DNA of 64,000 bases from the human T2T-CHM13v2.0 reference genome, Homo sapiens, in contig CP086569.2 in NCBI GenBank assembly GCA_009914755.4, positions 13,152,001 through 13,216,000 of the forward strand, read 5' to 3'. The position numbers and the translations under genes are program-made. Positions 647 through 45,200 of the stretch are shown in pieces. The notes below the pieces were generated by a model that was not told the origin of the DNA, did no database searches, and saw nothing but the letters and a program-made list of their open reading frames with translations. The number at the start of each line of letters is the position of its first letter. Within the stretch, counting starts at the first letter, position 1.

Positions 647-912
647 AGGATGTCCTGTTTGTATTCATATTCAGAACTCATTTTGGTGGTGGTTAAGACA
701 ACTGGTTTTGGCACAATTTACAAATCTTTGCATTATGCAAAGAAAAATGAACCCCAACATAGACTTTCAAGAATCACCACATGTGAGAAGAAAAAGATCC
801 CAGGGAAACAGCAAGTGGAATGAAAGAACAGAACAAAGAAAGTCAGGAAGACTGCAAAGGCCACTGTTGGTTCTGGCAATAGAAGAGGTGGAGACTGGGT
901 GAAAAACAGACT

Positions 913-1409
913 AAGAGAAGAGAGACAGACCCTCTCATATTGCTTTATATTGTTTTATACTCAGAAAAGGAAAGAAAAGTGAAACAAAAGGCAGGTAGCC
1001 CGGCGCCTAGGAACCAGACCTGAAACCAAAGAACCAGACCTGAAACCAGGCCTGGGCCTGCCTGACCTAAGCCTGGTGGTTAAAATTCCACCCCTGACCT
1101 AGCAACTGATGTTATCTATAGATTCCAGACATTGTATGGAAGGACATTGTGAAACCTCCCATTCTATTCTGTTTCACTCTGACCACTGGTGCTTGCAGTC
1201 CCTGTCACGTTACCCCTGCCTTGCTCAATCAATCACAGCCCTCTCACACAGACCCCCTTGGAGTTGTGAGCCCTTAAAAGGGAAAGAAGGTGGGCACCTG
1301 AAAGCTCAGATTTTAAGATGTTAGTCTGCCAATGCTTCCAGCTGATTAAAGCCACTTCCTTCACTATCTTGGTGTCTGTGGGGTTTTGTTCACAGCTTGT
1401 CCTGCTACA
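913..1409 (+). repeat. 5' LTR of HERV-E-like provirus (LTR2-like)
   Basis: near-identical (~90%) to 6954-7474; ends …tcctgctaCA; starts TA (TG in 3' copy). Confidence 0.8.
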
Positions 1410-1414
1410 TTTCT

Positions 1415-1432
1415 TGGTTCCCTGACCTGGAA
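1415..1432 (+). promoter_or_regulatory. primer-binding site complementary to tRNA-Glu 3' end
   Basis: TGGTTCCCTGACCTGGAA vs expected TGGTTCCCTGACCGGGAA (1 CpG-type mismatch), 6 nt after LTR end. Confidence 0.75.
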
Positions 1433-1934
1433 GTGAGGTGACTGATGGACGGCCGAGGCAGCCCCTTAGGTGGCTTAGGCTTACCCTGTGGAGCATCCCT
1501 GTGGGGGACTCCAGCCAGCCTGAGTTACGCGATGCAAAGAACACTCATGGGTAGGCAATTGCCCCGGTGGAACGCCTCACCAAAGCAGCACATAACGGGC
1601 CCCCACGGAGGATTAACACAGTGGCTGAACACCAGGAAGGAACTGGCACTTGGAGTCCAGACATCTGAAACTTGGTAAGACTAGTCTTTGAAATTTGCCC
1701 ACTCCATTTGAGTGGAAGCATGGCCTGATCACCCACGGTGTGCCTGTATTGGCACTTTTGTTCCGGTTTTGACTTTACTTGAATTGCTTGATACTTTGAT
1801 TTTGATTTTGACTTGGCCTGATACTCTGATTTTAGTTTGGTATAAATCTTAAAGGTGTGTGTGTGCCCTCTTTACCCATTCTTTGTTTTGTGGTGAGTGT
1901 GTGGTGTGGGCATGGTATTTTGTCTTGAGAAAAC

Positions 1935-2396
1935 ATGGGCCAGCCTCAAAGTAAGCCAATCCCATTGGGAACTATGTTAAAGAATTTCAAGAAAGGATTC
2001 AAAGGAGACTATGGAGTCATTATGACTCCAGGAAAACTTAGAACTTTGTGTGAAATAGATTGGCCAGAATTACAGGTGGGTTGGCCATCAGAAGGAAGCT
2101 TGGACAGGTGTCTTGTCTCAAAGGTATGGCAAAAAGTAACTTGTAAGGCAGGACACCCAGATCAGTTCTCATATATAGATTCCTGGTTACAGCTAGTTTT
2201 AGACCCCCCACAGTGGTTAAGAGGACAGGCAGCAGCATTACTAGTAGCAAAGGGACAGTTAGTTAAAGAAGGTTCTTGCTCCACCCGCAGAGGGAAGCCA
2301 ACACCTAAAGTTCTATCTGATACAGTGCCTGAAGATTCATTCAGTCGGTTGTGCAAAAGGGATGGATGCCCTGCACCTGGAGGACTGTGGGCATAA
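1935..2396 (+). pseudogene. gag N-terminal remnant (MA/p12-like, MGQPQSK… myristoylation-type start), truncated by internal deletion
   Basis: ORF 1935-2396 begins MGQ; followed directly by RT C-terminal homology, so CA/NC/PR/RT-N are deleted. Confidence 0.7.
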
Positions 2397-3145
2397 GGTG
2401 TCCAAGAAGAAAGCTCAGACCTGCAGACAGCAGGTACACTACCTGGGATTCACTATTCAGAAAGGGGAGTGCAGCCTGGGGTCAGAAAGAAAGCAGGTCA
2501 TCTGCAGCTTACCAGAACCTGAAACCAGAAGGCAAGTAAGGGAATTTCTAGGAGCTGTGGGGTTTTGCAGATTATGGATTCCAAACTTTGCAGTGCTAGC
2601 CAACCATTGTATGGGATTACAAAGGGGGGTGACTGAGAGCCCTTTGAATGGGAGCCTCTACAACAGCAAGCCTTTTGTAAGTTAAAAGAAAAACTTATGT
2701 CACCCCAGCTCCAGGACTACAAGATTTGACAGAGCCCTTTACACTCTATGTATCAGAAAGAGAAAAAATGGCAGTTGGAGTTTTAACCCAAACTGTGCGG
2801 CCCTGGCCAAGACCAGTGGCCTACCTCTCAAAACAGCTAAATGGAGTTTCAAAAGGCTGGCCTCCATGTCTGAGAGCCCTGGCAGCTAAAGCCCTGTTAG
2901 CACAAGAAGTAGAAAAGCTAATCCTTGGACAAAACTTAAGTATAAAGGCCCTCCATGCAGTGGTAAGTTTAAAGAATATCAAAGGACACAATTGGCTAAC
3001 AAATGCTAGATTAACCAAATACCAGAGCTTGCTATGTGAAAACCCCTACATAACCATTGAAGTCTGTAACACCCTAAATCCTGCCACCTTTCTCCCAGTA
3101 TTGGATAGCCCTGTTGAACATAGCTGTGTGGAGGTGTTGGACTGA
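2362..3145 (+). pseudogene. pol: reverse transcriptase C-terminal (post-YXDD, thumb/connection) fragments
   Basis: ORFs 2362-2685 and 2726-3145: …KKAQTCRQQVHYLGFTI…REFLGAVGFCRLWIPNFA… and …GVLTQTVRPWPRPVAYLSKQL…GWPPCLRALAA… match MLV-type RT. Confidence 0.85.
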
Positions 3146-3179
3146 GTCCATTCTAGCAGATCCAATCTTTGATACCAGC

Positions 3180-3560
3180 CATGGGCATCAGTGGACTGGG
3201 AGTTATACATGGACGGGAGCAGCTTCATCAATCCACGAGGAGAAAGATGTTCCGGATATGTGGTGGTAACCTTGAATAATGTTATTGAAGCCAAGCCATC
3301 GCTCAGGGCACTTCAGCCTAGAAAGCAGAACTCATTGCTTAAACTCGGACTCTAGAACTCAGTGAAGGTAAGACTGTAAACATTTATCCTGACTCTCAAC
3401 ATGCCTTTCTAACCATTCAAGTACATGGAGCATTATATAAAGAAAAAGCCCTGTTAAATTCTGGAGGCAGAGACTTAAAATATCAACGAGAAATTCTGCA
3501 ATTATTAGAGGCAGTGTGGAAAGCCCAAAAGGCAGCAGTTATGCACTGCAGGTGACATCA
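3180..3560 (+). pseudogene. pol: RNase H domain, frameshifted
   Basis: translation across frames resembles MLV RNase H (…NIYPDSQHAF…ILQLLEAVWKAQKAAVMHC…). Confidence 0.6.
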
Positions 3561-3681
3561 GCGAGCTTCCACCTCAGTAAGCCAGTGAAACTCCCGAGCA
3601 GTCACAGAGGCACGAAAAGCAGCGTCTACTCCTTACCGGGCATCAGTCACAGCCTTCCTGCTCCCTCAAACACCTGATCTT

Positions 3682-4790
3682 GTGTCTACTTATTCTAAAG
3701 AGGAAAAAGACTTTCTTCAGGCAGAGGGAGGACAAGCAATACAAAAAGGATGGATAAAGTTACTAGATGGGAGAATAGCTGTACCACAGCTGCTAGGAGC
3801 CACAGTCACGCTGGCTGTACATGAAACTACCCATTCAGGCCAAGACTCACTTGAAAAGCTGTTAAGCTGGTATTTCTATATCTCACACTTGCCAGCTCTT
3901 GCTAAGACAGTAGCACAGTGATGGGTTACCTGATGACAGCATAATGCAAAGCAAGGCCCCTCTGTTCCTCCTGGCATAAAAGCCTATAGAGCAGCTCCTT
4001 TTGAAGATCTTCAAGTGGACTTCACAAAGATGCCCAAATGTGGAGGTAACAAGTATTTACTGGTTCTAATGTGTACTTACTCTGGGTGGGTAGAGGCTTA
4101 TCCAACAAGAACTGAAAAAGCTTGTGTAGTAACCTGTGTGCTTCTTTGAGACCTCATCCCTAGGTTTGGACTCCCTCTATGGATCGGCTCAGATAGTAGG
4201 CCGGCATTTGAGGCTGATGTAGTACAGAGACGGCAAAGATATTGGGAATCACTTGGAAGTTACATGCTGCCTACTGACCTCAGAGTTCCGGAAAGGTGGA
4301 GTGAATTAATCAGACTATTAAAAATAGGTTAGGGAAAGTATGTCAAGAGACAGGATTAAAATGGATGCAGTCCCTTCCTATAGTATTGTTTAAAATTAGT
4401 TGCATCTCCTCTATGAAAATAGGATACTCCCCTTATGAAATATTATATCACAGGCCTTCTCCTATACTGTGAGGACTTTCAGGTACTCCGCAAGAGTTGG
4501 GTGAAATTGAATTGCAGCAACAGCTACAGGTCTTGGGGAAAATTACCCAGACAATCTCAACTTGGGTAAATGAGAAGTGCCTGGTCAGCTTATTCTCCCC
4601 AGTTCACGCTTTTTCTCCAGGTCACCATGTGTGGATCAACAACTGGAACATAGCCCCTTTGTGGCCATGGTGGAAAGGACCTCAGACCATTATCTTGACC
4701 ACCCTCACAGCTGTAAAAGTAGAAGGAATTCTGACCTGGATTCACCACAGCTGCCTAAAGCCTGCAGCTGCTGATACCTAGGCCAAACCA
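3682..4790 (+). pseudogene. pol: integrase (zinc-finger, catalytic core, C-terminal domain), multiple frameshifts/stops
   Basis: HETTHSG… N-term; core …YLLVLMCTYSGWVEAYPT…GSDSRPAF…; C-term ORF 4497-4781 …WKGPQTIILTTLTAVKVEGILTWIHHSCLK… (MLV IN-like). Confidence 0.8.
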
Positions 4791-4884
4791 AGCCTGGACA
4801 ATCCCTGTAAAGTGACCCTGAGGGGGATGACAAGCCCCGCTGCAGTCACATCCGGAAGCTGACTGGTCTACATACGGCCAAAGC

Positions 4885-6925
4885 ATGAGGAAAATCGTCG
4901 TGGGACTTATTTTCCTTATAACATGGATTTGTGTGGTAAAAGCTGCTTCTTCCCACACAGAGGAATGCTTTCAGTGCATACTTCAGGTCACTGAGGTAGG
5001 ACAAAAGGTTAAAACAATCTTTTTGTTCTATAGTTATTATGAGTGCCTAGGAACTCCAGAAGGAACATGTTTATATAATAACACTCAGCACAAAGTCTGT
5101 AATCCAGGAAGTGATCAGCCTGATGTGTGCTGTGACTCCTCTGAACCTCCCATGATCACAGTTTTTTGAAATAAGACTAAGAACTGGTCCTTTTCTAGGT
5201 GACACAAGTAAAATAATAGCTAAGACACAAGAAAGAGGGGTCCCCAAGCATGTAACCCTAAAATTTGATGCTTTTGCCACTATTAATAGTAATCAGTATG
5301 GAATAGGATGCGGTTCTTTAGATTGGGAAAAAAGTTACACAGCAGAAAATAAGTATATCTGCGATGAATCATATTCATGTACAAAAGTGTGTCAGCACTG
5401 GTCTTGTGTCATCTGGGTTTCTTGGAAAAAAGATGAAAAAGATCTCGTTTTCCAAAAAGGAAAAAGCAGCTCGTCCTGCACAAGTGGAAGCTGCAACCCT
5501 TTAGAATTGGTAATTACAAATCCCTTATACCCAAAGTAGGAAAAAGGAGAACACATATCTCTAGGCATTGATGGAAAAGGACTAGACCCTAGAGTAAATA
5601 CCTTAATAAAAGGGGAGGTTCAGAAACGCTGTCCAGAACCAGTATTTCAGACTTTCTATGATGAACTAAATGTGCCAGTACCTGAGATTCCAGGAAAAAC
5701 TAAAAATTTGTTTTTGCAATTAACCGAGCATGTAGCCCAGTCTCTAAAAGTCATTCTGTGTTGTTTGTGGAGGAACTTTAAAAGGAGATCGATGGCCACG
5801 GGAAGCCCAAGAATCAGTTCCTACAGACCCAGTTCCTGATGAATTCCCAGCCCAAAAGAACCACCCTGACAATTTCTGGGTTCTAAAAGTCTCAATTATT
5901 GTACACTATTGCATAGCTAGAAAAGGAAAAGAATTTACTCATCCTGTAGGACGGCTTAGTTGTCTAGGACAGAAACTGTATAACAGTACCACAAAACAGT
6001 TACATGGGGGAGTTCAAACCACACAGAGAAAAATCCATTCAGTAAATTTCCAGAGTTGCAGACCATTTGGGCCCACCCAGAATCCCACCAGGACTGGACT
6101 GCCCCCACTGGGTTATACTGGATATGTGGACATAGAGCCTATGCTAAGCTACCTGACCAGTGGACAGGTAGTTGTGTAATTGGCACTATTAAAACATCTT
6201 TCTTCCTAATACCCATAAAAACAGGTGAACTCCTACGCTTCCCTGTCTGTGCTTCTCACGAAAAGCAAAGCATAGCCATAGGTAATTGGAAAGACGATGA
6301 ATGGCTTCCTGAGAGAATTATACAATACTATGGGCCTGCCCCTTGGGCACAAAATGGCTCATGGGGATACCAGACCCCCATTTACATGTTCAACTGAATT
6401 ATACAGTTGCAAGCTGTTTTAGAAATCATCAGTAATAAAACTGGTTAAGCCGTGACTGTTCTAGCCTGGCAAGAAACTCAGATGAGGAATGCTATCTATC
6501 AAAATAGATGAGCTCTCGACTACTTGCTAGCAGCTGAAGGAGGGGTTTGTGGAAAATTTAACCTTACTAATTGCTGTCTACACATAGATGATCAGGGGCA
6601 AGTAGTTGAAGACATAGTTAAAAATAAAACGAAACTGGCACATGTGCCCCTGCAAGTGTGGCATGGATATGATCTTGGGGCCATGTTTAGAAATTGGTTC
6701 CCAGCACTAGGAGGATTTAAAACTCTACAGTAGGAGTTATAATAGTAATAGGAACCTGCTTACTGCTCCCTTTTTTACTACCTGTACTTCTTCAAAGGAT
6801 AAAAAGCTTCATTGCTACCTTTGTTCACCAAAATGCTTCAGTACAAATGTACTATGTGAATCACTATCAATCTATTACACAGGAAGACAAAAGTAGCAAA
6901 AATGAGAGTAAGAACTCCCACTAAT
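4885..6925 (+). pseudogene. env (signal peptide + SU + TM), disrupted by stops/frameshifts
   Basis: ORF 4885-5169 signal peptide; SU motif YWICGHRAYAKLPDQWTGSC (6056-6397); TM with CC…immunosuppressive-like region and membrane span (6524-6925). Confidence 0.75.
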
Positions 6926-6940
6926 AAAAAGTGAGAGTCT

Positions 6941-6953
6941 CAAAGGGGGAAAA
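6941..6953 (+). promoter_or_regulatory. polypurine tract preceding 3' LTR
   Basis: caaagggggaaaa immediately 5' of LTR start TG. Confidence 0.6.
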
Positions 6954-7474
6954 TGAGAGAAGAGAGACAGACCCTCTCATATTGTTTTATACTCAGAAAA
7001 GGAAAGGAAAGCGAAACTAAAGGCAGGTAGCCCAGTGCCTAGGAACCAGACCCGAAACCGAGGAAGCAGAACGAAAACCAGGCCTGGGCCTGCCTGACCT
7101 AAGCCTGGTAGTTAAAATCCCACCCCAACCTAGCAACTGATGTTATCTATACATTATAGAAAGACACTATAAAACTTCCCAGTCTGTTCTGTTTCACTCT
7201 GACCACCAGTACTTGCAGCCCCTGTCATGTACCCCCTGGCTTGCTCAATTGATCACGACCCTCTCACAGACCCCCTTAGAGTTATGAGCCCTTAAAAGGG
7301 ACAGAAGTTGGGCACCTGACAAGCTCGGATTTTAAGATGTTAGTCTGTCGATGCTTCCAGCTGATTAAAGATGGATTTTAAGACATTAGTCTGCCAATGC
7401 TTCCAGCTGATTAAAGCCACTTCCTTCACTATCTTGGTGTCTGGGGGATTTTGTGCACAGCTCGTCCTGCTACA
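6954..7474 (+). repeat. 3' LTR of HERV-E-like provirus; contains internal 43-bp tandem duplication (7328-7416)
   Basis: TG…CA, aligns with 913-1409; duplicated unit gattttaaga..ccagctgattaaag. Confidence 0.8.
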
Positions 7475-8239
7475 AGACAAAGTAGCAATTCTGCAATGAC
7501 ATCAGCAGCAGCCATTGTGTGGATTTTTTACAAGAGAATTAATAAATTATAAACTTTAAGGAAATAAAACAAATTTCAATCAACATTTATCCACAGGAAT
7601 TCCCCCCCCCCCCACCAAAAAAAAAGTTAGCAGCTAGTGGAGTAACCAGTGGGCCTTTAATAATCTGGAATGGTAGATAAATTTATTGGATCTTAAATGC
7701 ATTCCTTGGAAACTTGAAAGCACCAAAGTTAGTGGCCTTTGGCAGCCTGATAGTAATTACCTCTACTCGTTAGGACCCCAGGGCTGAGAGAGTTCCCCTT
7801 CCTTGTCACACAGACAAAATGGGAACACCCCACAGCAAGGCTTCAGCCACATCCTGCCCTGATTCAGTTCTGAGAATTGGTAGGGCACAGGCACCATGGT
7901 TTCCCAGTGTTCCTTCAGGGTATCAGCCACCTTTTTAATCACAAAATAATGGAGAGTTGGAGAGTCTCCTTGTCAGGCATCAGTGGGGAAGGAAAATTAA
8001 ATTAAGTAATAAAATTTAAAATAATAAGCATAACATAGGTAATAGTTAACATTTAGTATAAGCTATTTAGAAGTCACACATAGGCTAAAATTTTAAGCAG
8101 ACCCTCCCAGCATTGTTAACAAGTTGCAGATGCAAGCTTACTTCAAAAGCTTTTCACCTGCCTCGGCCCACCACCTCCCCGCCACTTCCATCCCCCCACC
8201 CACTTCCACCCCCGTACCGCATCCCGCACATTGCACTGT

Positions 8240-8320
8240 GCATTGTGCCATTGCACTCCAGCCTGGGTAACATAGTGAGACTCCATTTCAATAATAATAA
8301 TAATAATAAATAAAATAAAG
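8240..8320 (+). repeat. Alu 3' fragment with (AAT)n tail
   Basis: …ttgcactccagcctgggtaacatagtgagactccatttcaataataataat…. Confidence 0.7.
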
Positions 8321-8442
8321 TTGATATAAATTGAGCAAGTGGATAATACTACTGTCTTCATGGGTAAAATGCTGATGAAATTTGTCCAAAAATCTGATAG
8401 CTATTTCTTGGCTTATGACTTTGTGGGTTTTTGGTTGTTGCT

Positions 8443-8743
<301 letters not shown>

Positions 8744-9041
8744 TGACTTTGTGGTTTGAAAGAAAAAAAAGCTATTTTCTGGTGGCAGACTGCATGTGTA
8801 AACACTTGTGTTAATTACTTCATTCCAAGAGAGCTTATCTCTGTTGACCTGGGAAACCCAAACATACACCTTGTGACTTGGAATTCAGATAAAAAGCTGT
8901 TATTGCATCAAAATAAAACTGAACCACACAGGGTGATCTTGTATCTCTGAGAAGTGCAGTAATTTTGATGTGGCCGGTGGTTGTTGTGTATGCCAGTGCA
9001 CCTATGCACAGGTGTACTTTTTCTTTTCTTTCCTTGGTATC

Positions 9042-9328
9042 TTTTTTTTTCTTTCTAAGACATGCTCTATCACAGGCTAGTGTGCAATGCTGTGATCATG
9101 CTCACTACAGCCTCAAACTCCTGGACTTAAGTGATCCTCCCACTTCAGCCTCCCAAGTAACTGGGACTACAGGCACATGCCACCATGCTCAACTTACTTA
9201 AAAACATTTTTGTGAAGATGCGGTCTTACTGTTGCCAAGGCTGGTTTGAAACTCCTGGGATCAAGCAATCCTCCCACCTTGGCCTCCTGAAGTTCCGGGA
9301 TTACAGGCGTGAGCCATCGTGCCCAGCC
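9042..9328 (-). repeat. Alu SINE
   Basis: reverse-complement Alu consensus, poly-T at 9042. Confidence 0.9.
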
Positions 9329-9421
9329 CTTTATCACTTGTTAACATAGTCAAGCCATGTTTTTATTTCCTCACATCCTAACTTGAGGGCAGAGTCCAGC
9401 AGAGCCCGCCAGTTTGCATAC

Positions 9422-9543
9422 CTGATCAGATCGGGTATCTTCCCGTCAAGAACACGGACCAGCTTGGGCTGCAGATGGAGGTGGCAGAGATGTGCTGAGT
9501 CAGTCGCACGCCTTCCCTGGCAAGGCAGTGGATGTGAGGCGTC
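9422..9543 (-). pseudogene. arylsulfatase (ARSF-like) internal exon carrying sulfatase signature region; inactivated (CSPSW instead of CSPSR; in-frame TGA)
   Basis: minus-strand: acceptor …cccccttcag|G, translation [39 protein letters not shown], donor CAG|gtatgc; matches sulfatase block …[33 protein letters not shown]; stop TGA at 9426-9428. Confidence 0.8.
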
Positions 9544-9544
9544 C

Positions 9545-10576
9545 TGAAGGGGGAGAGGGAAGGTGTATTGAAGAGAAGGAAAAGGTGGGAGGCGGGGGAA
9601 GCAGAGAGGAAGAGTGAGAGAAAGGCAGAGAAGGACAAACAGAAAGGCACAGGTGGAAAGAGAGAGGAGAGACAGACAGGGAGAGAGGGAGAGACCCAGA
9701 AAGCGAGGCAGAGAGAGAGAGACAGACAGAAAGAAAAGATGAAAGAGAGAGAGAGAGATGAGAATGAGAGCAACAGAAAAGGATAGAAAGAGACAAACAG
9801 AAAGAAAGAGATAAAAAGAGAAAGAGACAAAGGGTAGGACACACAAAGAGAGAGAGAGATGGAAAGAGAGAGACAAACAGAAAAAAGGAGAGAGAAAGAG
9901 AGACAGAAAGAGGGAGACAGAGAATGACAGAGAGGGACAAACATACAGAGAAGATGAGAGAGAGAGAGAGAGATGGAAAGAGACATACGGAGTTTAAGAG
10001 AGAGACAGAAAGAAATGAAAAGAAAGACTTAAACAGAAGGAGGGAGTCAGAGAAAGAGAAACAGAAAATGAGGTGGGTAAAGAGAGACAGACAGACAGAG
10101 GGAGAAGAAAGAGAGAAAAACATAGAGAGATGAAAAGAGAGAAAGAGACAGAGAGAGATACAGAAAGAGAGATGGAGAGAGAGAAGTAGAAAGAGAGAGA
10201 TAAACAGAGAGATGGAAAGAGACAGACAGAGGGTGAGAGAAGGAAAGACAGAAAGAGATAGAAAGAAATGGATAGAATGAGATAGACAAAAAGAGAGACA
10301 AAGACAGAGACCGACAGTCACAGAGAGATATAGAAAGAGAGACAAGCAGACAAAGGGGGAGACAGAGACAGACATAGAAACAAATGGAGAGACAGAAAGA
10401 GATGGAAACAGATGGACAGAGAGAGGGAGAGAGAGAGACAGAAAGAGATAGAAAGAAATAGAAAGAGATAGATAGAGAGAGACAATCAGAGACAGATAGA
10501 CAAGCAGACAGAGAGGGGTGACAGAGACAGGCATAGAAGGAGATGGAGAGACAGAAAGAAGAGAAAGAGAGAGACA

Positions 10577-10608
<32 letters not shown>

Positions 10609-10610
10609 TC
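9545..10610 (+). repeat. GA-rich polypurine low-complexity tract / degenerate minisatellite (~1.07 kb)
   Basis: almost pure purine on + strand (gagagacagaaagaga… units); six-frame 'ORFs' of S/L/R/E/K repeats are artefacts. Confidence 0.9.
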
Positions 10611-10969
10611 TGAAGATAAACAACATCCCTGTTTATTATGATTTCCAGGTGCCCAGAGCAGGTAACTGCACATGGAGTTCATTTTTCTTTCTTGCCCGTG
10701 TCAAGGTGAAGTATGACTGAAATTCCAGGCAGCTGTTGTTCTGCGGGGCTCGTATACATGGGTGCCGCTATATGGTGTCCATTCACTGTACTTCAGCCTT
10801 ACAAAATAAAATGCTTAAGGAATTGGGGTCTGATTTATCGAGGCTAATTGCTTACAGACCTTACTTATGCCTAACTACTTACAGACCACCCACCCACCAA
10901 TTTGATAGATACATTTCCCTGCAGTCTGCATAGGTTGCAAAACTGTCATATGATTAAATATTCAAAAGA

Positions 10970-11455
10970 AGGAAATCCCATCATTTTCAACAACACAGAT
11001 GAACTGAAAGGGTATTAAATGAAATAAGCCAAGCACAGAGAGACAAATACCGCATGATCTCACTTATGTGTGGAATCTAAAACAGCAAACTCAGAAGTAG
11101 AATAGTGGGTATCAGGGGCTGGGGCAAGGGTTGAGAATAGGTATGTTAAAGGATATAACATCTCATGGAGCCAAACATGAATAAATCCTCTATTTGATTT
11201 ATTCCTCACATAGAGGAATAAATTTAAGAGATCTGTTGCAGATTGTGGTGACTATAGCTAATAACAATGTATTCTATTCTTGAAATTGCCATAATTTTAA
11301 CCATTCTCACCACATATAAATAATAAGTATGTGTGGTTGTGCATGTTAATTAGCTTGATTTAGCTATTCCACAATGGATCCATGAATCAAAACATCATAA
11401 TGTACACCATAAATACACAGAACTATAATTTGTCAATTAAAAAATAATTTAACAA
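10970..11455 (+). mobile_element. L1 (older L1PB/L1MA-type) 3' end fragment
   Basis: …gaaataagccaagcacagagagacaaataccgcatgatctcacttatgtgtggaatc… and …ggtgactatagctaataacaatgtattctat… typical L1 3'UTR. Confidence 0.8.
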
Positions 11456-12184
11456 GAGAATTCTGGAGGCTGGAGAGACTTCTGGAAAAAGAATCAGTCA
11501 CCTCTTGGATGAAAATAAAATATAATGATTTCTACATTTGTTCATGAGAGAAATTATGACAGGTAACTGGTGCAAGAAGAATTTCCAGCTTTACCAAGGC
11601 ATGTATCTGATTTTTTTTTTGAGATATGGAAGTCACCTACCAACTTTTAAAACATTATTTATTTTGCAAAGAAAAAAGATTATAAACTGCATTCCAGGGG
11701 CACGTGTGCCTGATTTTAGATTTCACATTATAATCTCACTTCTCAAATTGCTAGTATTTTCAGCAAAACACTGATACCTCACACTGACATAATCTCCATA
11801 AATATCTGCCATTTATGGACACCATGTTTCTGTGCGTTTGGGTGAGTCCTCCCTTCTTTTCTCATAAGCAATGGTTAATTTTTGGCGACTACTTTTTCAT
11901 GACTCCTAGCTCTGTTGTTGAAAACTGTGATGACTACCTTCAGCATCTATTAGTCACACATGCAGTGATCTTAAAAGTGTATGATGTATGTCTTATAATG
12001 ATGTACTCCTAAGCTCAGTATAAGCATAGCTAATACAGGTGGCTTCTATAATCCACTACAAAGCTCTGAGTTTCTGCTGCATATCTGTTTTTCTTCTTTC
12101 AGAATGCCCATTGTTAAAAATACAAGCTCATCACCTTAAAGAATCTGTTGACTCGCCAAATTAGGAAACAGAATGAATTCTGCT

Positions 12185-12770
12185 GAATGTACATATTCAC
12201 ATTTATATATTTATGAATATATATGCTTGAATATATAAATATATACTTATTAATTTATACATATTTATGAATATATTTATATGAACATATTTATATATTA
12301 TAAATATGAATATATAAATATGTTTATAATATATAATTTTATGTTATGAATATATATTCATTTTATATAAATATTTATATAAAATAAATAAATATGTTTA
12401 CATATATTTATTTATACTTTTCTAAAGTATATAGATGTTTATATATTTATTTAAATATATTTATATATAAATGTATATAAATTTTATTTATACATTTATA
12501 TAAAAATGAATATATATTCATAGACATATAAATATGTATATATTCATGTATATATGAATAACATTTATATATTTGTAATATATACTCATATATGTTTATA
12601 TATTGAATATATGTTCATATATTCATAATATATGATATATAATACAATAAATGTATGATATATATTTTATATATTATAGAATATATTCATAAATGAAATA
12701 TATCACATATTTATATAATATTTATATGTTTATATCTGTATATGCACATGTATATACAATCATCATGCTT
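12185..12770. repeat. AT-rich complex minisatellite (tatatg/aatatatttata motifs)
   Basis: ~590 bp of imperfect ATATTTATA/TGAATATATA repeats. Confidence 0.85.
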
Positions 12771-13317
12771 CATAATAGACTGCATAATAGAGGATAGTTG
12801 TGTGTTAGGTACTATTCTAAGTTCTTTACACATATAAACTCAGGGATATAAAGCCTTCTCTGCATTCGACAAATAAGAAAACTAAGGCACAGACAGCTTC
12901 GGCGACTTCTCCAAGACTTCAGAGGTAGTAAATACAGAGCTAGGACTTGGGTCCGGACAGCCACGCTTTTACTTTGACCATCCTCGTTAATGGTAGAGAC
13001 ACTGGATGCACTGATTACCCTGATCTGATCACTATACATTGTGCGTATCCAAACCTCACTGTGTATCCCGTGAAGATGGACGATTATTATTTCTTAAAAA
13101 CTGAATGAGATTCAAATTAAAATTATTAAAAATGTAATTGTAAAACTATTTTTACAATTTAAATCTAAATAATTTAAAGCTATCAAAAAGCTTAAAGTAA
13201 CTTAAAAAATCCCAATGAATCCATTTGGTTTTGCACATAGATGCAGTTGTACAAGTTTGTCAGCCTGTCAAACCTGAACAACTGATGAACATATGACTCG
13301 CCATGAAACCGCCTTAC

Positions 13318-13467
13318 CTGATGGTGTCATTGCCATAGCAGCCCAGATCTCCAATACCCAGGTTATCAACCATGATCAGGATAATATTAGGCTTGTTGTC
13401 ATGCACCCTGTGTGCCTGGCAAGTGTTCAAGAGTGCACACACCAAAGACATGAAGACCAAGGGGCTC
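13318..13467 (-). pseudogene. arylsulfatase (ARSF-like) coding exon (signal peptide end + N-terminal metal-binding block), DDLG→DNLG
   Basis: minus-strand: acceptor tttgctttccag|GAGCCCC (AG at 13469-13468), translation [49 protein letters not shown](R), donor CAG|gtaagg (GT at 13317-13316); 150 bp; strong match to ARSF/ARSD/ARSE/STS N-terminus. Confidence 0.8.
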
Positions 13468-13883
13468 CTGGAAAGCAAACGGATTTTATTGGCCAGGCTT
13501 CTCTGGGTGGATTCAGGATCCACCTCCCAGTACAACACAACAGGGGTCTTTGAAGATCACGTGGATCTCCCAGACATCTCCTCAAGCTCAAGAGTGTCTC
13601 TCTCCAAGCACCGAGCTCTGCTGCTGAATGGTAGCAGAAGTTCCCAATGTAATGTGCTCTTGGCTTCTCACGTTGCATAAAATAAAGGCTAAAACAACAG
13701 ATGTTAATGTGGATGCAGTGAAAACGGAATCCTTTTATACTGTTAGTGGGAATGTACCACCGCTGTGGAAAACAGTATGGAGATTCCTTAAAGAACTAAA
13801 AATAGACCTACAATTTGATCCAGCAATCCCACTCCTGGGTATCTACTTAGAGGAAAAGAAGGCATTATATATAAAAGACACTG

Positions 13884-14265
<382 letters not shown>

Positions 14266-17600: not shown

Positions 17601-18289
17601 ATATTAGTTGTATGGCTCTGTGTTGACAGACTTGAGCTTTGAGGGACAGTGATAAGTTCTGATTTCCATAAGATTAGAAGTTAGGATAATACATGTTATA
17701 CTGTTAACTTTTAGCAAACTTACTTTTGTTGAAAATCTTGTAAGTTTGGGATTTCAATTATTCTTTGCTATTAATAAGACCTTGTTCAGTCCATATTAAC
17801 TTAGAATTGGTATAGATGGCTCCTTCCTGATTCTGTAAGTACTTTAAGGTTTGGCTGAGTGCAAACAGCTCACACCCTTGAGCAGACCAATTATTAAGCA
17901 ATTTTCCTAACTCTTACTCTGCAAGAATTTCCTTATCACTTACTGAATACCATTGTGTCTTTTTCCCTTAATCACCTGGGAGGAACCATCTATCATTCTA
18001 TTGTCCTGTCTTCAAGGGAGTTCCTCCTAGGTCTGGTCGGACCTTTGTATGGTAATTAGTTAAGATTTAGATTCCATTAGGAAACTTTCTGGGTTAAGGA
18101 TTTTTGATAGGAAGGCTATGGGTTGTCAGTGGCCTCAGTGCTTTTGGGCTACATCCTTGTTTACACTGAAAACAAGGTGGCATTGGAGTGTTATAGGGTT
18201 ATGGAAAAGACCTTCAATTGTCAATTACAGGTTTTTAATTTACCCTGGCTTTTAGAGGAATAGAGTATACTGTTTTTTCTTTACTACTT

Positions 18290-18585
18290 CCATTTCTGTT
18301 TCTTTCTCTTTTGACTTCTTTTTTGTCTCTCTTTCTGACTCTTTGTCTCTTTCTGACTCTTTGTCTTTCTGACTCTGTCTCTTCCTTTCTCTTTTTGATT
18401 TTCTGTCTCTCTGTTTCTTCCTCTGTCTGTCTCCTTCTCTTTGTCTCTCTGTTTCTTCCTCTCTCTCTCTCTGACTTTCTGTCTCTTTCTCTCTCCTTTC
18501 TGCTGGTCTTTGCCTGCCTCTGCCAACTGCTTATGCTGCTGTTCTCCCCACTCCTTCCCCTTTTGATGGCTTTGGCAGTATGAAA
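18290..18585 (+). repeat. CT-rich (GA-rich on provirus sense strand) low-complexity tract inside HERV9 internal region
   Basis: ttctttctcttttgacttcttttttgtctctctttctgactctttgtctc…; occupies the position where integrase would be expected. Confidence 0.85.
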
Positions 18586-29232: not shown

Positions 29233-30851
29233 ACAGTAGCATAGCCACACTTAGCTAAATTCTAAACTTTGGTTCCTGCTATCTAATCAGTCATGTCTAT
29301 TTAATGCAATAATGCCAATGCACACAACTGTCATAAGGGCAGGAAAAGAAAACAGTAGAACACACATTGAAAAGGAACAAACCTTTGACCAAACCAGGTG
29401 TTGTTTCTTGAGCAGTGTAAAGGCAGCCCTATTAAAGGTCATGATTTGCAATGTTCTGGCGTCCATTGAGTTGTTGTCGGGGTAGGGTGCTTGTGTCTGA
29501 ATTCACCCAAATTGTTCAGAAATGGCACTTGCCTGCCATCTCTGAAAGACATAGATGAATCTTAATACAGTCCTTGTACATAGCTTTTCTATGTTGTTTT
29601 TTTTTTCCAGTAGGACAAGAAATACATGAAAGACTTCATTGTCGTGCTGGTTATAGTGACCCAGTGAGGATAAAGCTCCCCTAAGGAAAATGATAGCAGG
29701 TCTATTTTATCAAAGTTTGCATTTATTTCAAAGGTTAGCATCTGGCCAGGAAATATAATGTTCCCTCTTCTAGGAAATAAAGTGAAATTGTAATAAATGC
29801 AATGTTTATCATCCACACGCCTACATTCCTGAAATTCTTGGAGTTCACTTTTCTCATGGGTGAAATCAAGATTGGCGTGTTATCTGTGCATAGCCTTTGA
29901 TGTAAAGATGATGATACTCCCTAGCCACATTCCCTAGACGATTTCAGCTGCCTCCTAATAAGACGTTCTGACTGTTACTCTTCAGAATTATGGGATGAAG
30001 AGGGCTCCATAAACCATCTCACTCAAATAGAATCAGAACCACTCACTCTTCCAGGAGCTGAAGGGAGATTTTAAGCAGATCACAGATGACCAAGTGTCCT
30101 AGTAATGTCAGAGTTTCTGGGGAAAAAAAAAACGCTAATAAAGAACAAAAGTGCTCCCTGCATTTGTGATGCAGGAGATAATTCTTGCTGAAGTGAAGCA
30201 AAACAGACAAATTTTTTTTGCTTCTCATTAATATAAATTTTGCTTAACAATATTCAGCTCCATAGAGGATATGACACATGTCATTTTGCAATAAGCAACT
30301 TGCTGAGGTGTTTTTATGAAAAAATATCCAGGGATCTATCAAATGATGGGCAACTGACTCTTTTACCCCAAAGCCAAAGTTCGTTTGTTCATGGAATATT
30401 TATAAAATCCCAGCTGAGCATCTGACTTCCAGGGTAGACTTTGGAGTCACAATGAATGGAATCAGAATAGCTCCTCTCTCAGCAGAGAGGATCAGTGTCA
30501 GTCGTGGCTATTAAAAAGTTCAATAAAGTGTCACAGACAACAAGCTTAATGTATCCTGGGTTGAAACAGACACAGGTTAGAAAGTGAAAGGAATTCTACC
30601 TAGGGTGATCGGAAGAGAATCATAGAAAAAGATCAATGTTCTCCCGTTTTCTAATAAAGCAGTCGGCCTGTCTACAAGAAAATTGAGTGAAGCAGATTTT
30701 GTTTAAGATTGAGATAAAGTCAGCACTGCCTCCATCTGTTTCAGGTTGGGTGGAGAGGGTCATTCTCTTCAACAAGATGTTGTTTTGATACGATCCAATA
30801 TGTTCAATTATTTTAAATGTCTAGACTAGACATTGAAATTAAGAATGATGC

Positions 30852-44224: not shown

Positions 44225-45200
44225 ACAAACTGAGATAGGCACACATAAAGAGAAAGAAAAAGGAAGGCAGAAGAGGGGAGAGAGAGAAACACAGAGAAGA
44301 GAGAGGAGAGAAACACATAGAGAATGAGAGCGGGAATGAGAAAAACAAGAGAAAAAGAGAAAAATGCGAGAGGCAATCAGAGTCAGAGAGAGACAGAGAA
44401 AGAGAAAGGTACAGGGAAAGAGAAAAAAGAACCATGCAGAAAAAGAGAGAGCAAGAGAGAGGGAATCAGATGGAACAGACAGAAATACACAGAGGCAGAG
44501 ACTGAGAGAAAGAGGGGGGCCAAACACACGGATAATGAGACAGAAACTGAAACCGTGACAGGGACCATTAGAGAGATGCAGAAGACACTGGAGAGAGAAG
44601 GAGTAATACAGAATGAGAATCACAGAGAGAAACAGAGAGAGAGGAGACAGAAACACAAATAAAGAGAGAGGGAGAAAGAGAGTGAGATATAAAGGAGAGA
44701 AAGAGGGTGACACAGAGAGGAGAGAAAGACAGTAAGAGAGGAGAGAGAGAAACAGAGTGAGACAGAGAGGACAGAAAGACAGACAACAGAAAAGATGTGA
44801 GACAGAGAGGAGAGGAACAGAGTGAGACAGAGGAAAGAGAAACAGTGAGACAGAGAGGACAGAAAGACAGTGAGACAGAGCAGAGAAAAAGACAGTGACA
44901 CAGAGGAGAGAGTAAGATGAGAGAGAGAAAAAGAGTGAGACAGAGAGGAGAGAAAGAGACAGAGGAGACAGAGTGAGAATGAAAGTAAGACAGAGGAGAG
45001 AGACAGAGGAGAGAAAGAAAAAGTGTGAGACAGAGGAGAGAGTAAGAAAGAAAGTGAGACAGGAGGAGAGAGAGAGAGGAAAGAGAGAAGGAAAGTGAAA
45101 CAGAGGAGAAAGATACAGAGAAAGACAGAAAGAGGAGAGTGAGAAAGAGGAGAGAGAGGAGAGGAGAGTGAGACAAAGAGAGAACTACGCACACAGAGGG
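44225..45200 (+). repeat. GA-rich polypurine tract / degenerate ~25-bp minisatellite (gtgagacagagaggagagaaagaca)n, ~1 kb
   Basis: near-pure purine + strand; ORFs 44207-45231 are low-complexity artefacts. Confidence 0.9.

What the first reader, a model, noticed from the sequence alone, without database searches (positions are those of the whole stretch)
9544..10610. 1.07-kb polypyrimidine (gene-sense) / polypurine tract immediately abutting the 3' splice site of the sulfatase exon
The GA-rich tract ends at 9545. The exon acceptor AG is at 9545-9544. On the gene (minus) strand, the exon is therefore preceded by about 1 kb of almost uninterrupted pyrimidines. Homopurine·homopyrimidine tracts of this length can adopt H-DNA/triplex structures. 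Such tracts are known to stall replication and transcription and to be fragile. Placement directly against a splice acceptor is unusual. It could have contributed to loss of function, or it could simply have expanded after the gene died.
Basis: seen in the sequence. Interest (0 to 1): 0.5.

Follow-up and report, generated by a model that had tools for sequence, protein, structure and literature searches.

The report
Degenerate GA-rich repeat in pseudogene intron
The 1.06-kb purine-rich stretch is real, but it is a heavily interrupted, old, GA-type simple repeat at the 3' end of an intron of a dead human arylsulfatase-F copy, one of three such tracts in this window, and nothing shows that it killed the gene or does anything.

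Summary
The tract exists at window 9546-10608. The + strand is 87% purine, so the gene (minus) strand is pyrimidine-rich. The acceptor AG (9545-9544) and the sulfatase exon (9543-9422) are as described. "Almost uninterrupted" is wrong: a pyrimidine occurs about every 8 nt and the longest pure run is 25 nt. The tandem repeat proper starts at 9656. Between it and the exon lies a normal-looking 3' splice site. The tract is a compound (GA)n/(GAAA)n/(GACA)n/(GATA, GATG)n low-complexity repeat. Its C interruptions are motif-borne (85% in ACA context). An internal 118-bp duplication has diverged to 84% identity, so the tract is old. Two sister tracts of the same composition lie at 44.2-45.2 kb and, in the opposite orientation, at 18.3-18.5 kb. 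H-DNA potential is small: one 45-bp motif at the far end plus two marginal ones, 11% of the tract. The host is a human ARSF-type pseudogene, probably Y-linked ARSFP1. It carries its own lethal lesions: a TGA, the catalytic Arg changed to Trp, Asp to Asn in the metal site, and loss of all middle exons. Chimpanzee shares the stop and the Trp. The homologous intron in three other vertebrate family members has no such tract. The X-linked ARSF intron could not be obtained, so the timing relative to X-Y divergence stays open. Verdict: ordinary, low interest.

The parts
9546..10608 (.). Purine-rich (+) / pyrimidine-rich (gene-sense, -) tract, 1063 bp, 87% R on +
   Evidence: Composition and run statistics.
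9656..10608 (.). Degenerate tandem repeat proper: (AG)n / GAAAGAGAGA-type units, about 62% matches, with GACA and GATA/GATG units
   Evidence: TRF. k-mer and context analysis: C is in ACA context in 60 of 71 cases against 34.5% expected, p 5e-18.
9546..9655 (-). Proximal G-rich (C-rich in gene sense) segment. Contains the 18-nt polypyrimidine tract (9546-9563) and a branch-site-like island with A at -21, -23, -25 and -26 (9564-9571)
   Evidence: Gene-sense 3' end reads ...CTTCAATACACCTTCCCTCTCCCCCTTCAG|G.
9544..9545 (-). 3' splice-site AG
9422..9543 (-). Sulfatase catalytic-site exon (122 nt) of the ARSF-type pseudogene. Arg->Trp codon TGG at 9461-9459, in-frame TGA at 9428-9426, donor GT at 9421-9420
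   Evidence: The exon A + exon B product is identical to human EAW91602.1.
9544..13317 (-). Intron (3774 nt) between the DDLG exon and the catalytic exon. The tract is its 3'-most 28%
13318..13467 (-). Upstream exon (…[45 protein letters not shown]), with Asp->Asn in the DDLG motif
10560..10604 (.). Best H-DNA-type mirror repeat (arms 22, spacer 1, 96% purine, 10% asymmetry allowed). The perfect version has arms of 16 at 10566-10598
10332..10448 (.). Copy 1 of an internal 118-bp duplication (copy 2 at 10490-10606, offset 158, 83.9% identity)
   Evidence: also TRF 46-bp period at 10387-10482 and family D3.
10490..10606 (.). Copy 2 of the internal duplication
10029..10030 (-). The only gene-sense AG dinucleotide strictly inside the tract (A at 10029). 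This gives a 484-nt AG-exclusion zone upstream of the acceptor; the next AG is at the tract's edge, 10611
7760..7966 (-). Remnant of the last ARSF exon (last ~65 codons, 81.5% aa identity to X-type ARSF C-terminus). All exons between it and 9422 are missing
44240..45200 (.). Sister tract of the same class (85.5% purine on +)
18270..18510 (.). Sister tract in the opposite orientation (87% pyrimidine on +)

Best explanation
The tract is a neutral, old, degenerate compound microsatellite or low-complexity repeat built from GA, GAAA, GACA and GATA/GATG units. It occupies the 3' end of an intron of a human ARSF-type pseudogene, most likely Y-linked ARSFP1. It grew by replication slippage and by at least one ~158-bp segmental tandem duplication. 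It was probably seeded in or next to the intron's own polypyrimidine tract, and point substitution then eroded it. It belongs to a class that recurs in this region, which descends from the ancestral pseudoautosomal neighbourhood. Its position next to the acceptor is incidental. The acceptor keeps an ordinary branch-site-like island, an 18-nt pyrimidine tract and CAG|G. Its capacity for H-DNA is limited to a few short segments. It neither needs to have inactivated the gene nor shows any sign of having done so.

Shown here: the composition, the interruptions, the motif structure, the internal duplication, the sister tracts, the splice-site anatomy, the independent inactivating lesions, and the absence of a tract in three distant homologues. 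Inferred: seeding by the polypyrimidine tract, neutrality, the Y-linked ARSFP1 identity, and the link to the ancestral pseudoautosomal region.
For: - The tract is 87% purine but interrupted about every 8 nt, with a longest pure run of 25 nt.
- TRF finds periods of 4, 10 and 14 at about 62% matches.
- 85% of isolated C interruptions sit in ACA context (expected 34.5%, p 5e-18). Interruption spacings peak at 4 and 10 nt. The interruptions are therefore parts of repeat units, not random decay.
- An internal 118-bp duplication has 83.9% identity. Its divergence is of the same order as the X-Y divergence measured here, 78.7-84.3% identity, so the tract is not a recent expansion.
- Two further tracts have the same base composition and hexamer spectrum, one of them inverted.
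- No retroelement poly(A) tail adjoins the tract. On + it starts directly after the exon, where the natural polypyrimidine tract lies.
- Perfect mirror repeats cover 118 nt, and there are three imperfect motifs; Markov-1 controls average 0.69 motifs and 26 nt.
- Independent lesions exist: TGA, Arg->Trp, Asp->Asn, and deletion of the middle exons. The chimpanzee XP_024210520.1 has the same Trp and the same truncation point.
- The homologous intron, with the same AG|G codon split, is 651-2802 nt long with 41-55% pyrimidine in its last 500 nt in a Logan vertebrate contig, Elephantulus ARSD and Nannospalax ARSD-like.
- Literature: the ARS cluster lies just outside PAR1 and is ancestrally pseudoautosomal, and the PARs are repeat-rich (PMC2577121). 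Clusters of H-palindromes occur in the PAR (PMC4538819, citing Bacolla 2006). H-DNA motifs number about 236,000 in the human genome (PMC11879447).
- No Rfam family matches 7000-14000.
Against: - Neutrality is inferred from degeneracy and context, not measured.
- Mirror-repeat coverage, though small, equals or exceeds every one of 100 Markov controls. Published work says such structures tolerate a substantial share of interruptions (PMC1543642), so some triplex potential remains.
- ARSFP1 is reported as transcribed in male stomach chief cells (PMC10865703), so the tract is probably present in a pre-RNA and could matter there.
- The X-linked ARSF intron and other primate Y copies were not obtainable. 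Neither the age relative to the X-Y split nor the 'seeded by the polypyrimidine tract' idea is tested.
- The three comparators are distant paralogues or orthologues, not ARSF of primates.
Confidence: 0.8

Rival explanations
1. The tract is an H-DNA-forming, fragile, polymerase-stalling element like the PKD1 intron-21 tract. It contributed to inactivating the gene, for example by provoking the deletion that removed the middle exons or by blocking transcription.
For: The tract is a long R.Y-biased stretch with mirror-repeat coverage above composition-matched controls. The large deletion begins within 1.5 kb on the other side of the adjacent exon. H-DNA motifs are known to stall polymerases and induce breaks (PMC11667243).
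Against: - Only 11% of the tract meets H-DNA criteria, and the one good motif is about 1 kb from the exon. PKD1 has 23 perfect mirror repeats in 2.5 kb (PMC11667243).
- The deletion does not touch the tract. It lies beyond exon B, next to an Alu at 9040-9330.
- Two of the point lesions look like simple C->T changes (TGA, TGG) unrelated to the tract.
- R-loop-type blockage favours homopurine in the coding strand (PMC4538819). Here the coding strand is homopyrimidine.
- The gene models P0351 and P0003 splice across this intron.
Confidence: 0.05
2. The tract is a functional, extended polypyrimidine tract: a binding platform for CU-binding splicing regulators such as PTBP1. It would control use of the 9543 exon in the transcribed pseudogene, with a distant branch point allowed by the 484-nt AG-exclusion zone.
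For: In gene sense the tract holds 43 UCUU and 66 CUCUCU motifs. Only one AG occurs strictly inside it, 484 nt upstream of the acceptor. yUnAy matches lie at -70, -195, -214, -220 and -267. ARSFP1 RNA is detected in male stomach (PMC10865703).
Against: Motif richness and the scarcity of AG follow automatically from the base composition. A branch-like island and an 18-nt pyrimidine tract already sit at the canonical distance. The host is a truncated pseudogene with no reading frame to regulate. Sister tracts occur in the opposite orientation and away from exons. No conservation data are available.
Confidence: 0.07
3. The tract already existed in the ancestral ARSF intron before X and Y diverged, so it is also present in functional X-linked ARSF. 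It would be an inherited neutral feature rather than a Y-lineage expansion.
For: The internal duplicate copies differ by 16%, of the same order as the X-Y divergence in flanking unique DNA, 16-21%. This argues for an age of tens of millions of years. The region derives from the repeat-rich ancestral PAR (PMC2577121).
Against: Low-complexity DNA mutates and misaligns easily, so the 16% figure is a soft clock. The 12-kb X-type ARSF contig L004 has no R/Y tract. Three non-primate homologous introns lack the tract. No direct X-linked intron sequence was obtained.
Confidence: 0.4
4. The tract derives from the poly(A) tail or A-rich linker of a retroelement that expanded, as at FXN or RFC1.
For: GA- and GAAA-rich expansions from Alu tails are well documented (PMC11667243, Table 1). 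The window is full of Alus.
Against: No Alu or L1 body adjoins either end in the required orientation. On + the tract is preceded by the exon itself and followed by unique sequence. The nearest Alu (9040-9330) lies on the other side of the exon with its tail pointing away.
Confidence: 0.03

Closest known systems
GA-rich simple repeats / low-complexity R.Y tracts of human introns and of the pseudoautosomal neighbourhood
   Same: Short-unit tandem structure found by TRF, strong strand asymmetry, intronic location, recurrence nearby in both orientations, and a location in a lineage descended from the repeat-rich ancestral PAR (PMC2577121; PMC4538819 citing Bacolla 2006).
   Different: Nothing essential. 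It is longer than most (about 1 kb) and more degenerate, at 87% rather than >=90-100% R.
PKD1 intron 21 polypyrimidine element (2.5-kb PyRE)
   Same: A kilobase-scale tract that is pyrimidine-rich in gene sense, lies inside an intron and runs up to a 3' splice site. The template strand for sense transcription is purine-rich.
   Different: [quoted passage not shown] Here there is one 45-bp and two marginal motifs, 13% interruptions, no experimental data, and a dead host gene.
Extended polypyrimidine tracts with distant branch points (my own knowledge: alpha-tropomyosin, c-src N1-type PTB-regulated exons)
   Same: A long CU-rich region and a long AG-exclusion zone (484 nt) upstream of an acceptor.
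   Different: Those tracts are tens to a few hundred nt long, conserved and functionally mapped. Here a canonical-distance branch-like island exists, and the AG scarcity is a by-product of composition.
Bkm-type GATA/GACA sex-chromosome repeats (my own knowledge)
   Same: GACA and GATA units are the main carriers of the interruptions (29 GACAG, 8 GATAG).
   Different: Only short runs occur, for example (GACA)3 near 10086. There are no long GATA/GACA arrays, and GA and GAAA units dominate.

Membership tests
Simple / low-complexity tandem repeat (GA-rich) | Head-to-tail short units detectable as a tandem array | tested here: met
   TRF finds 9656/9659-10608 with periods 4, 10 and 14, 61-62% matches, scores 179-214. 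GAGA and AGAG dominate the k-mer spectrum.
Simple / low-complexity tandem repeat (GA-rich) | Growth by slippage or duplication rather than unique sequence | tested here: met
   118-bp internal duplication at 83.9% identity and many 45-94-nt families at 62-89%. C interruptions are motif-borne, p 5e-18.
H-DNA-forming R.Y mirror-repeat tract (PKD1 PyRE type) | >=90% purine (or pyrimidine) on one strand | tested here: not met
   87% over the tract. Only some 50-nt windows reach 0.90-0.94.
H-DNA-forming R.Y mirror-repeat tract (PKD1 PyRE type) | Mirror repeats with arms >=10 nt and spacer <8 nt, many per tract | tested here: inconclusive
   Such repeats are present but sparse. Perfect repeats cover 118 of 1063 nt in about 3 places. 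There are three imperfect motifs with arms >=15, the best being 45 bp at 10560-10604. This is above Markov controls but far below PKD1's 23 (PMC11667243, PMC11879447).
H-DNA-forming R.Y mirror-repeat tract (PKD1 PyRE type) | Nuclease or chemical evidence of an intramolecular triplex; polymerase stalling | not testable with these tools
   Needs S1 or permanganate probing and replication or transcription assays.
Canonical U2-type 3' splice site | AG preceded by a pyrimidine tract and a branch-point A at about -18 to -40 | tested here: met
   The sequence reads ...CTTCAATACACCTTCCCTCTCCCCCTTCAG|G, with an 18-nt pyrimidine run and A at -21, -23, -25 and -26 (U at -28, A at -26). Actual use is not tested. 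The gene models P0351 and P0003 join the two exons here.
Type I sulfatase gene (ARSF lineage), as pseudogene | Exon encodes the C-x-P-S-R formylglycine motif region homologous to STS/ARS proteins | tested here: met
   E 2.6e-10 to human STS 1p49 residues 30-71. Closest named relatives are marmoset ARSF-like at 80% and chimpanzee ARSF-like at 97%. The C-terminus is 81.5% identical to the X-type ARSF ORF.
Type I sulfatase gene (ARSF lineage), as pseudogene | Intact reading frame and catalytic residues (would make it a functional gene) | tested here: not met
   CSPSW instead of CSPSR, TGA at 9428-9426, VDNLG instead of VDDLG, and missing middle exons.
Bkm (GATA/GACA) repeat | Long tandem arrays of GATA and/or GACA | tested here: not met
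   Only 2-4-unit runs occur. The spacing-4 class accounts for 27 of 126 interruption intervals.

The most novel reading that the evidence does not exclude
The tract is a Y-lineage-specific expansion of the exon's own polypyrimidine tract. In the transcribed ARSFP1 RNA it creates a ~1-kb CU-rich platform and a 484-nt AG-exclusion zone. These would alter splicing or nuclear retention of the transcript, or titrate CU-binding proteins such as PTBP1 or PCBPs, in male stomach chief cells.
Probability: 0.05. Interest if true: 0.35.

Novelty: already known. Interest (0 to 1): 0.1.

Why it matters
It matters little. The result removes a tempting story, that a triplex-forming tract killed a sex-linked gene. 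The tract is too interrupted to be a strong H-DNA former, it is one of several like it in the window, and the gene has ample independent lesions. The only residual value is as one more datable example for studying how polypurine/polypyrimidine repeats arise and decay on diverging X and Y copies. A simple X/Y and primate alignment would settle whether such repeats can be seeded by a splice-site pyrimidine tract.

Tried and rejected
1. None of the following yielded the intron:
- The first protein search with the 42-aa exon returned only a 57-aa ORF from an unknown vertebrate.
- Exact look-ups found nothing on record for human ARSL partial (P0273), Myotis ARSH (P0165), the human Celera product (P0351) and the 344-aa ORF spanning the tract.
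- The genome-contig scan returned only bacterial sulfatases.
- X-type human contigs were found only for exon A (571 bp, P0335) and for the last exon (L004, 12 kb), not for the intron in question.

2. A length-polymorphism check by exact ORF look-up found nothing on record.

3. Apparent giant pyrimidine tracts in the Elephantulus ARSD locus were an artefact: N gaps had been counted as non-purine. They were discarded. The introns used as comparators contain no N.

4. A retroelement poly(A) origin is rejected because no adjoining element lies in the right orientation.

5. A known structured RNA is rejected: there are no Rfam matches at 7000-14000.

6. The long ORFs over the tract (up to 344 aa of S/L/C/F-rich sequence) are by-products of stop-codon-poor CT-rich DNA, not genes.

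Full report
**What is there**

Window 9544-10610 contains A543 G382 C82 T60, which is 86.7% purine on the + strand. The window as a whole is about 52% purine. In 50-nt steps the purine fraction is 0.78-0.94 from 9550 to 10599 and 0.56 or lower on either side. AT skew reaches about +0.8 and GC skew about +0.5-0.8. The tract is therefore real and far beyond chance.

It is not "almost uninterrupted". It consists of 128 purine runs with a median of 6 nt. The longest is 25 nt (9879-9903). Only 14 runs reach 15 nt, 263 nt in all. Tandem Repeats Finder reports a degenerate array at 9656/9659-10608 with periods of 4, 10 and 14 and only about 62% matches.

**The interruptions are patterned**

Of 71 isolated C residues, 60 sit in ACA context, where composition predicts 34.5% (binomial p 5e-18). 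T residues occur mostly as ATA or ATG. The commonest 5-mers around interruptions are GACAG (29), GACAA (11), AACAG (8), GATAG (8) and GATGG (7). Interruption spacings peak at 4 and 10 nt.

The tract is therefore a compound repeat of GA, GAAA, GACA and GATA/GATG units, not a once-pure homopurine run that decayed at random. A self-comparison finds a 118-bp duplication (10332-10448 against 10490-10606, offset 158) at 83.9% identity, plus many shorter families at 62-89%. Growth thus included at least one segmental tandem duplication, and that duplication is old.

**The gene context**

On the minus strand the AG at 9545-9544 is followed by a 122-nt exon (9543-9422) with donor GT at 9421-9420. The exon translates to [39 protein letters not shown]. 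This is the sulfatase exon that carries the C-x-P-S-R formylglycine motif. The best solved match is human steryl-sulfatase 1p49 residues 30-71, E 2.6e-10.

The upstream exon lies at 13467-13318 and encodes ...[26 protein letters not shown]. The intron between them is 3774 nt, and the tract is its 3'-most 28%.

The two exons joined give exactly the human Celera product EAW91602.1. Chimpanzee XP_024210520.1, named "arylsulfatase F-like", differs from it by one residue. The closest named relatives are ARSF-like: marmoset at 80%. Exon A is 89.5% identical to an X-type ORF, and the C-terminus is 81.5% identical to the ARSF-type ORF ...CDKEEEVSQPRGPNEKR.

I infer that this is the Y-linked ARSFP1. 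A paper in the library describes ARSFP1 as Y-linked and expressed in male stomach chief cells (PMC10865703). The name and the Y location rest on my own knowledge and that paper, not on a database hit to this window.

**The gene is dead for reasons unrelated to the tract**

- The catalytic Arg is Trp (TGG at 9461-9459).
- There is an in-frame TGA at 9428-9426.
- The metal-binding DDLG motif reads DNLG.
- Only the last ~65 codons of the final exon remain (7966-7760), 1.45 kb downstream of exon B. Every middle exon is missing.

Homology to a 12-kb X-type ARSF contig (L004) begins inside the last exon, at window 7954. An Alu in gene-sense orientation (9040-9330) lies directly after exon B. The chimpanzee product has the same Trp and ends at the same codon, so these lesions predate the human-chimpanzee split.

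**The splice site itself looks ordinary**

In gene sense the intron ends ...CTTCAATACACCTTCCCTCTCCCCCTTCAG|G. There is an 18-nt pure pyrimidine run. Adenines sit at -21, -23, -25 and -26, with U at -28 and A at -26. The acceptor is CAG|G. The proximal 110 nt (9546-9655) is G-rich on +, with GC 0.57-0.59, unlike the repeat proper at 0.39-0.45. TRF does not include it in the main array.

Because CT dinucleotides are rare on the + strand, only one gene-sense AG lies strictly inside the tract. It gives a 484-nt AG-exclusion zone. This follows from composition and is not evidence of design.

**H-DNA potential**

I used the published definition: mirror repeats with arms >=10, spacer <8 and >=90% R/Y (PMC11879447). 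Perfect mirror repeats cover 118 of 1063 nt, mainly at 10566-10608 and 10415-10441.

Allowing 10% asymmetry, there are three non-overlapping motifs with arms >=15, covering 119 nt. The best is 45 bp at 10560-10604, with arms of 22. It lies at the end of the tract farthest from the exon.

First-order Markov controls of the same composition give a mean of 0.69 motifs and 26 nt, with a maximum of 102 nt. There is therefore a modest excess, but the absolute amount is small. [quoted passage not shown]

R-loop-type transcription blockage favours homopurine in the coding strand (PMC4538819). Here the coding strand is homopyrimidine.

One caveat applies. Published work notes that such structures can tolerate a substantial share of interruptions (PMC1543642), so some triplex potential cannot be excluded by computation.

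**It is not unique to this position**

Only three stretches in the 64-kb window reach 80% R or Y over 200 nt:

| Tract | Strand bias on + |
|---|---|
| This tract | 87% purine |
| 44240-45200 | 85.5% purine |
| 18270-18510 | 87% pyrimidine |

All three share A>G, C>T interruptions and similar top hexamers (GAGAGA, AGACAG, AGAAAG). They occur in both orientations and away from mapped exons. This argues for a regional mutational tendency rather than a splice-site-specific feature.

The ARS cluster lies just outside PAR1 and was pseudoautosomal ancestrally, and the PARs are repeat-rich (PMC2577121). Clusters of H-palindromes are reported in the PAR (PMC4538819, citing Bacolla et al. 2006, which I could not open).

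**Comparators**

The same intron, recognised by the conserved AG|G split of the Arg codon, was read in three loci:

| Locus | Intron length | Pyrimidine in last 500 nt | AG-exclusion zone |
|---|---|---|---|
| Logan contig, unknown vertebrate (L001) | 651 nt | 0.55 | 51 nt |
| Elephantulus ARSD (L002) | 2802 nt | 0.53 | 19 nt |
| Nannospalax ARSD-like (L003) | 659 nt | 0.41 | 35 nt |

None contains N. The tract is therefore not a family-wide feature.

The decisive comparator, the primate X-linked ARSF intron, could not be obtained. Unique DNA shared with the X-type contig is 78.7-84.3% identical. The internal duplicate is 83.9% identical. This suggests that at least part of the tract is tens of millions of years old. 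Low-complexity DNA is a poor clock, however, and I cannot say whether the tract predates X-Y divergence. I put that at about 0.4.

**Conclusion**

This is an ordinary, old, degenerate GA-rich compound repeat in a pseudogene intron, plausibly seeded by the intron's own pyrimidine tract (inference). It has little H-DNA capacity and no demonstrated role in the gene's death. No Rfam family matches the region. The long ORFs across it are artefacts of stop-poor CT-rich sequence. Interest is low.

Noticed in passing
window 44240-45200 and 18270-18510: Two more degenerate R.Y tracts of the same composition class (85.5% purine on +; 87% pyrimidine on +). The 44-kb tract shows a ~40-bp GTGAGACAGAGAGGA... 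periodicity.
   Followed up: partly
window 12190-12740: About 550 bp of extreme AT-rich low complexity (GC 7-12%; TATA/ATATTTATA-type) inside the same intron.
   Followed up: no
window 9422-9543, 13318-13467, 7760-7966: Lesions of the ARSF-type pseudogene: TGA at 9428-9426, Arg->Trp (TGG 9461-9459), DDLG->DNLG in exon A, a premature stop in the last-exon remnant (…GPNE* against X-type …GPNEKR), and loss of all middle exons.
   Followed up: yes
window 910-7480: Homology to the X-type ARSF contig L004 runs from window 7954 to 7480 and resumes from 910 to 4. About 6.5 kb here is extra relative to X: either an insertion on this copy or a deletion on X. Its content was not examined.
   Followed up: no
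window 9040-9330: An Alu in gene-sense orientation lies immediately downstream of exon B, with its T-rich tail side at 9019-9054. It is a candidate participant in the deletion that removed the middle exons.
   Followed up: no
window 29320-29552 (-): An ARSF-like 5' exon similar to the N-terminal part of marmoset 'ARSF-like' P0274 (38-43% aa identity), showing that the pseudogene extends at least 16 kb upstream of exon A.
   Followed up: no
P0350 (EAW91601.1): A Celera gene model fuses a glycogenin-2-like N-terminus (recognised from my own knowledge) to these ARSF-like exons. This implies a read-through GYG2-like/ARSF-like transcript model. The GYG2-like exons are not in the window.
   Followed up: partly
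cluster table: The Celera proteins that match this window are listed with a 'longest contig' of 155,407,050 bp, which is not the size of a Y chromosome record. This is unexplained and could reflect how that assembly placed the scaffold.
   Followed up: no
L002 9661-22048, L003 5263-5718: Runs of N (assembly gaps) in the comparator loci mimic pyrimidine-rich windows if N is not excluded. L003 also shows exon B twice on either side of a gap, probably an assembly artefact.
   Followed up: yes
L007-L086: Bacterial sulfatases are 51-63% identical to the 68 residues spanning exon A + exon B and encode them contiguously. The intron studied here splits a very conserved stretch.
   Followed up: no
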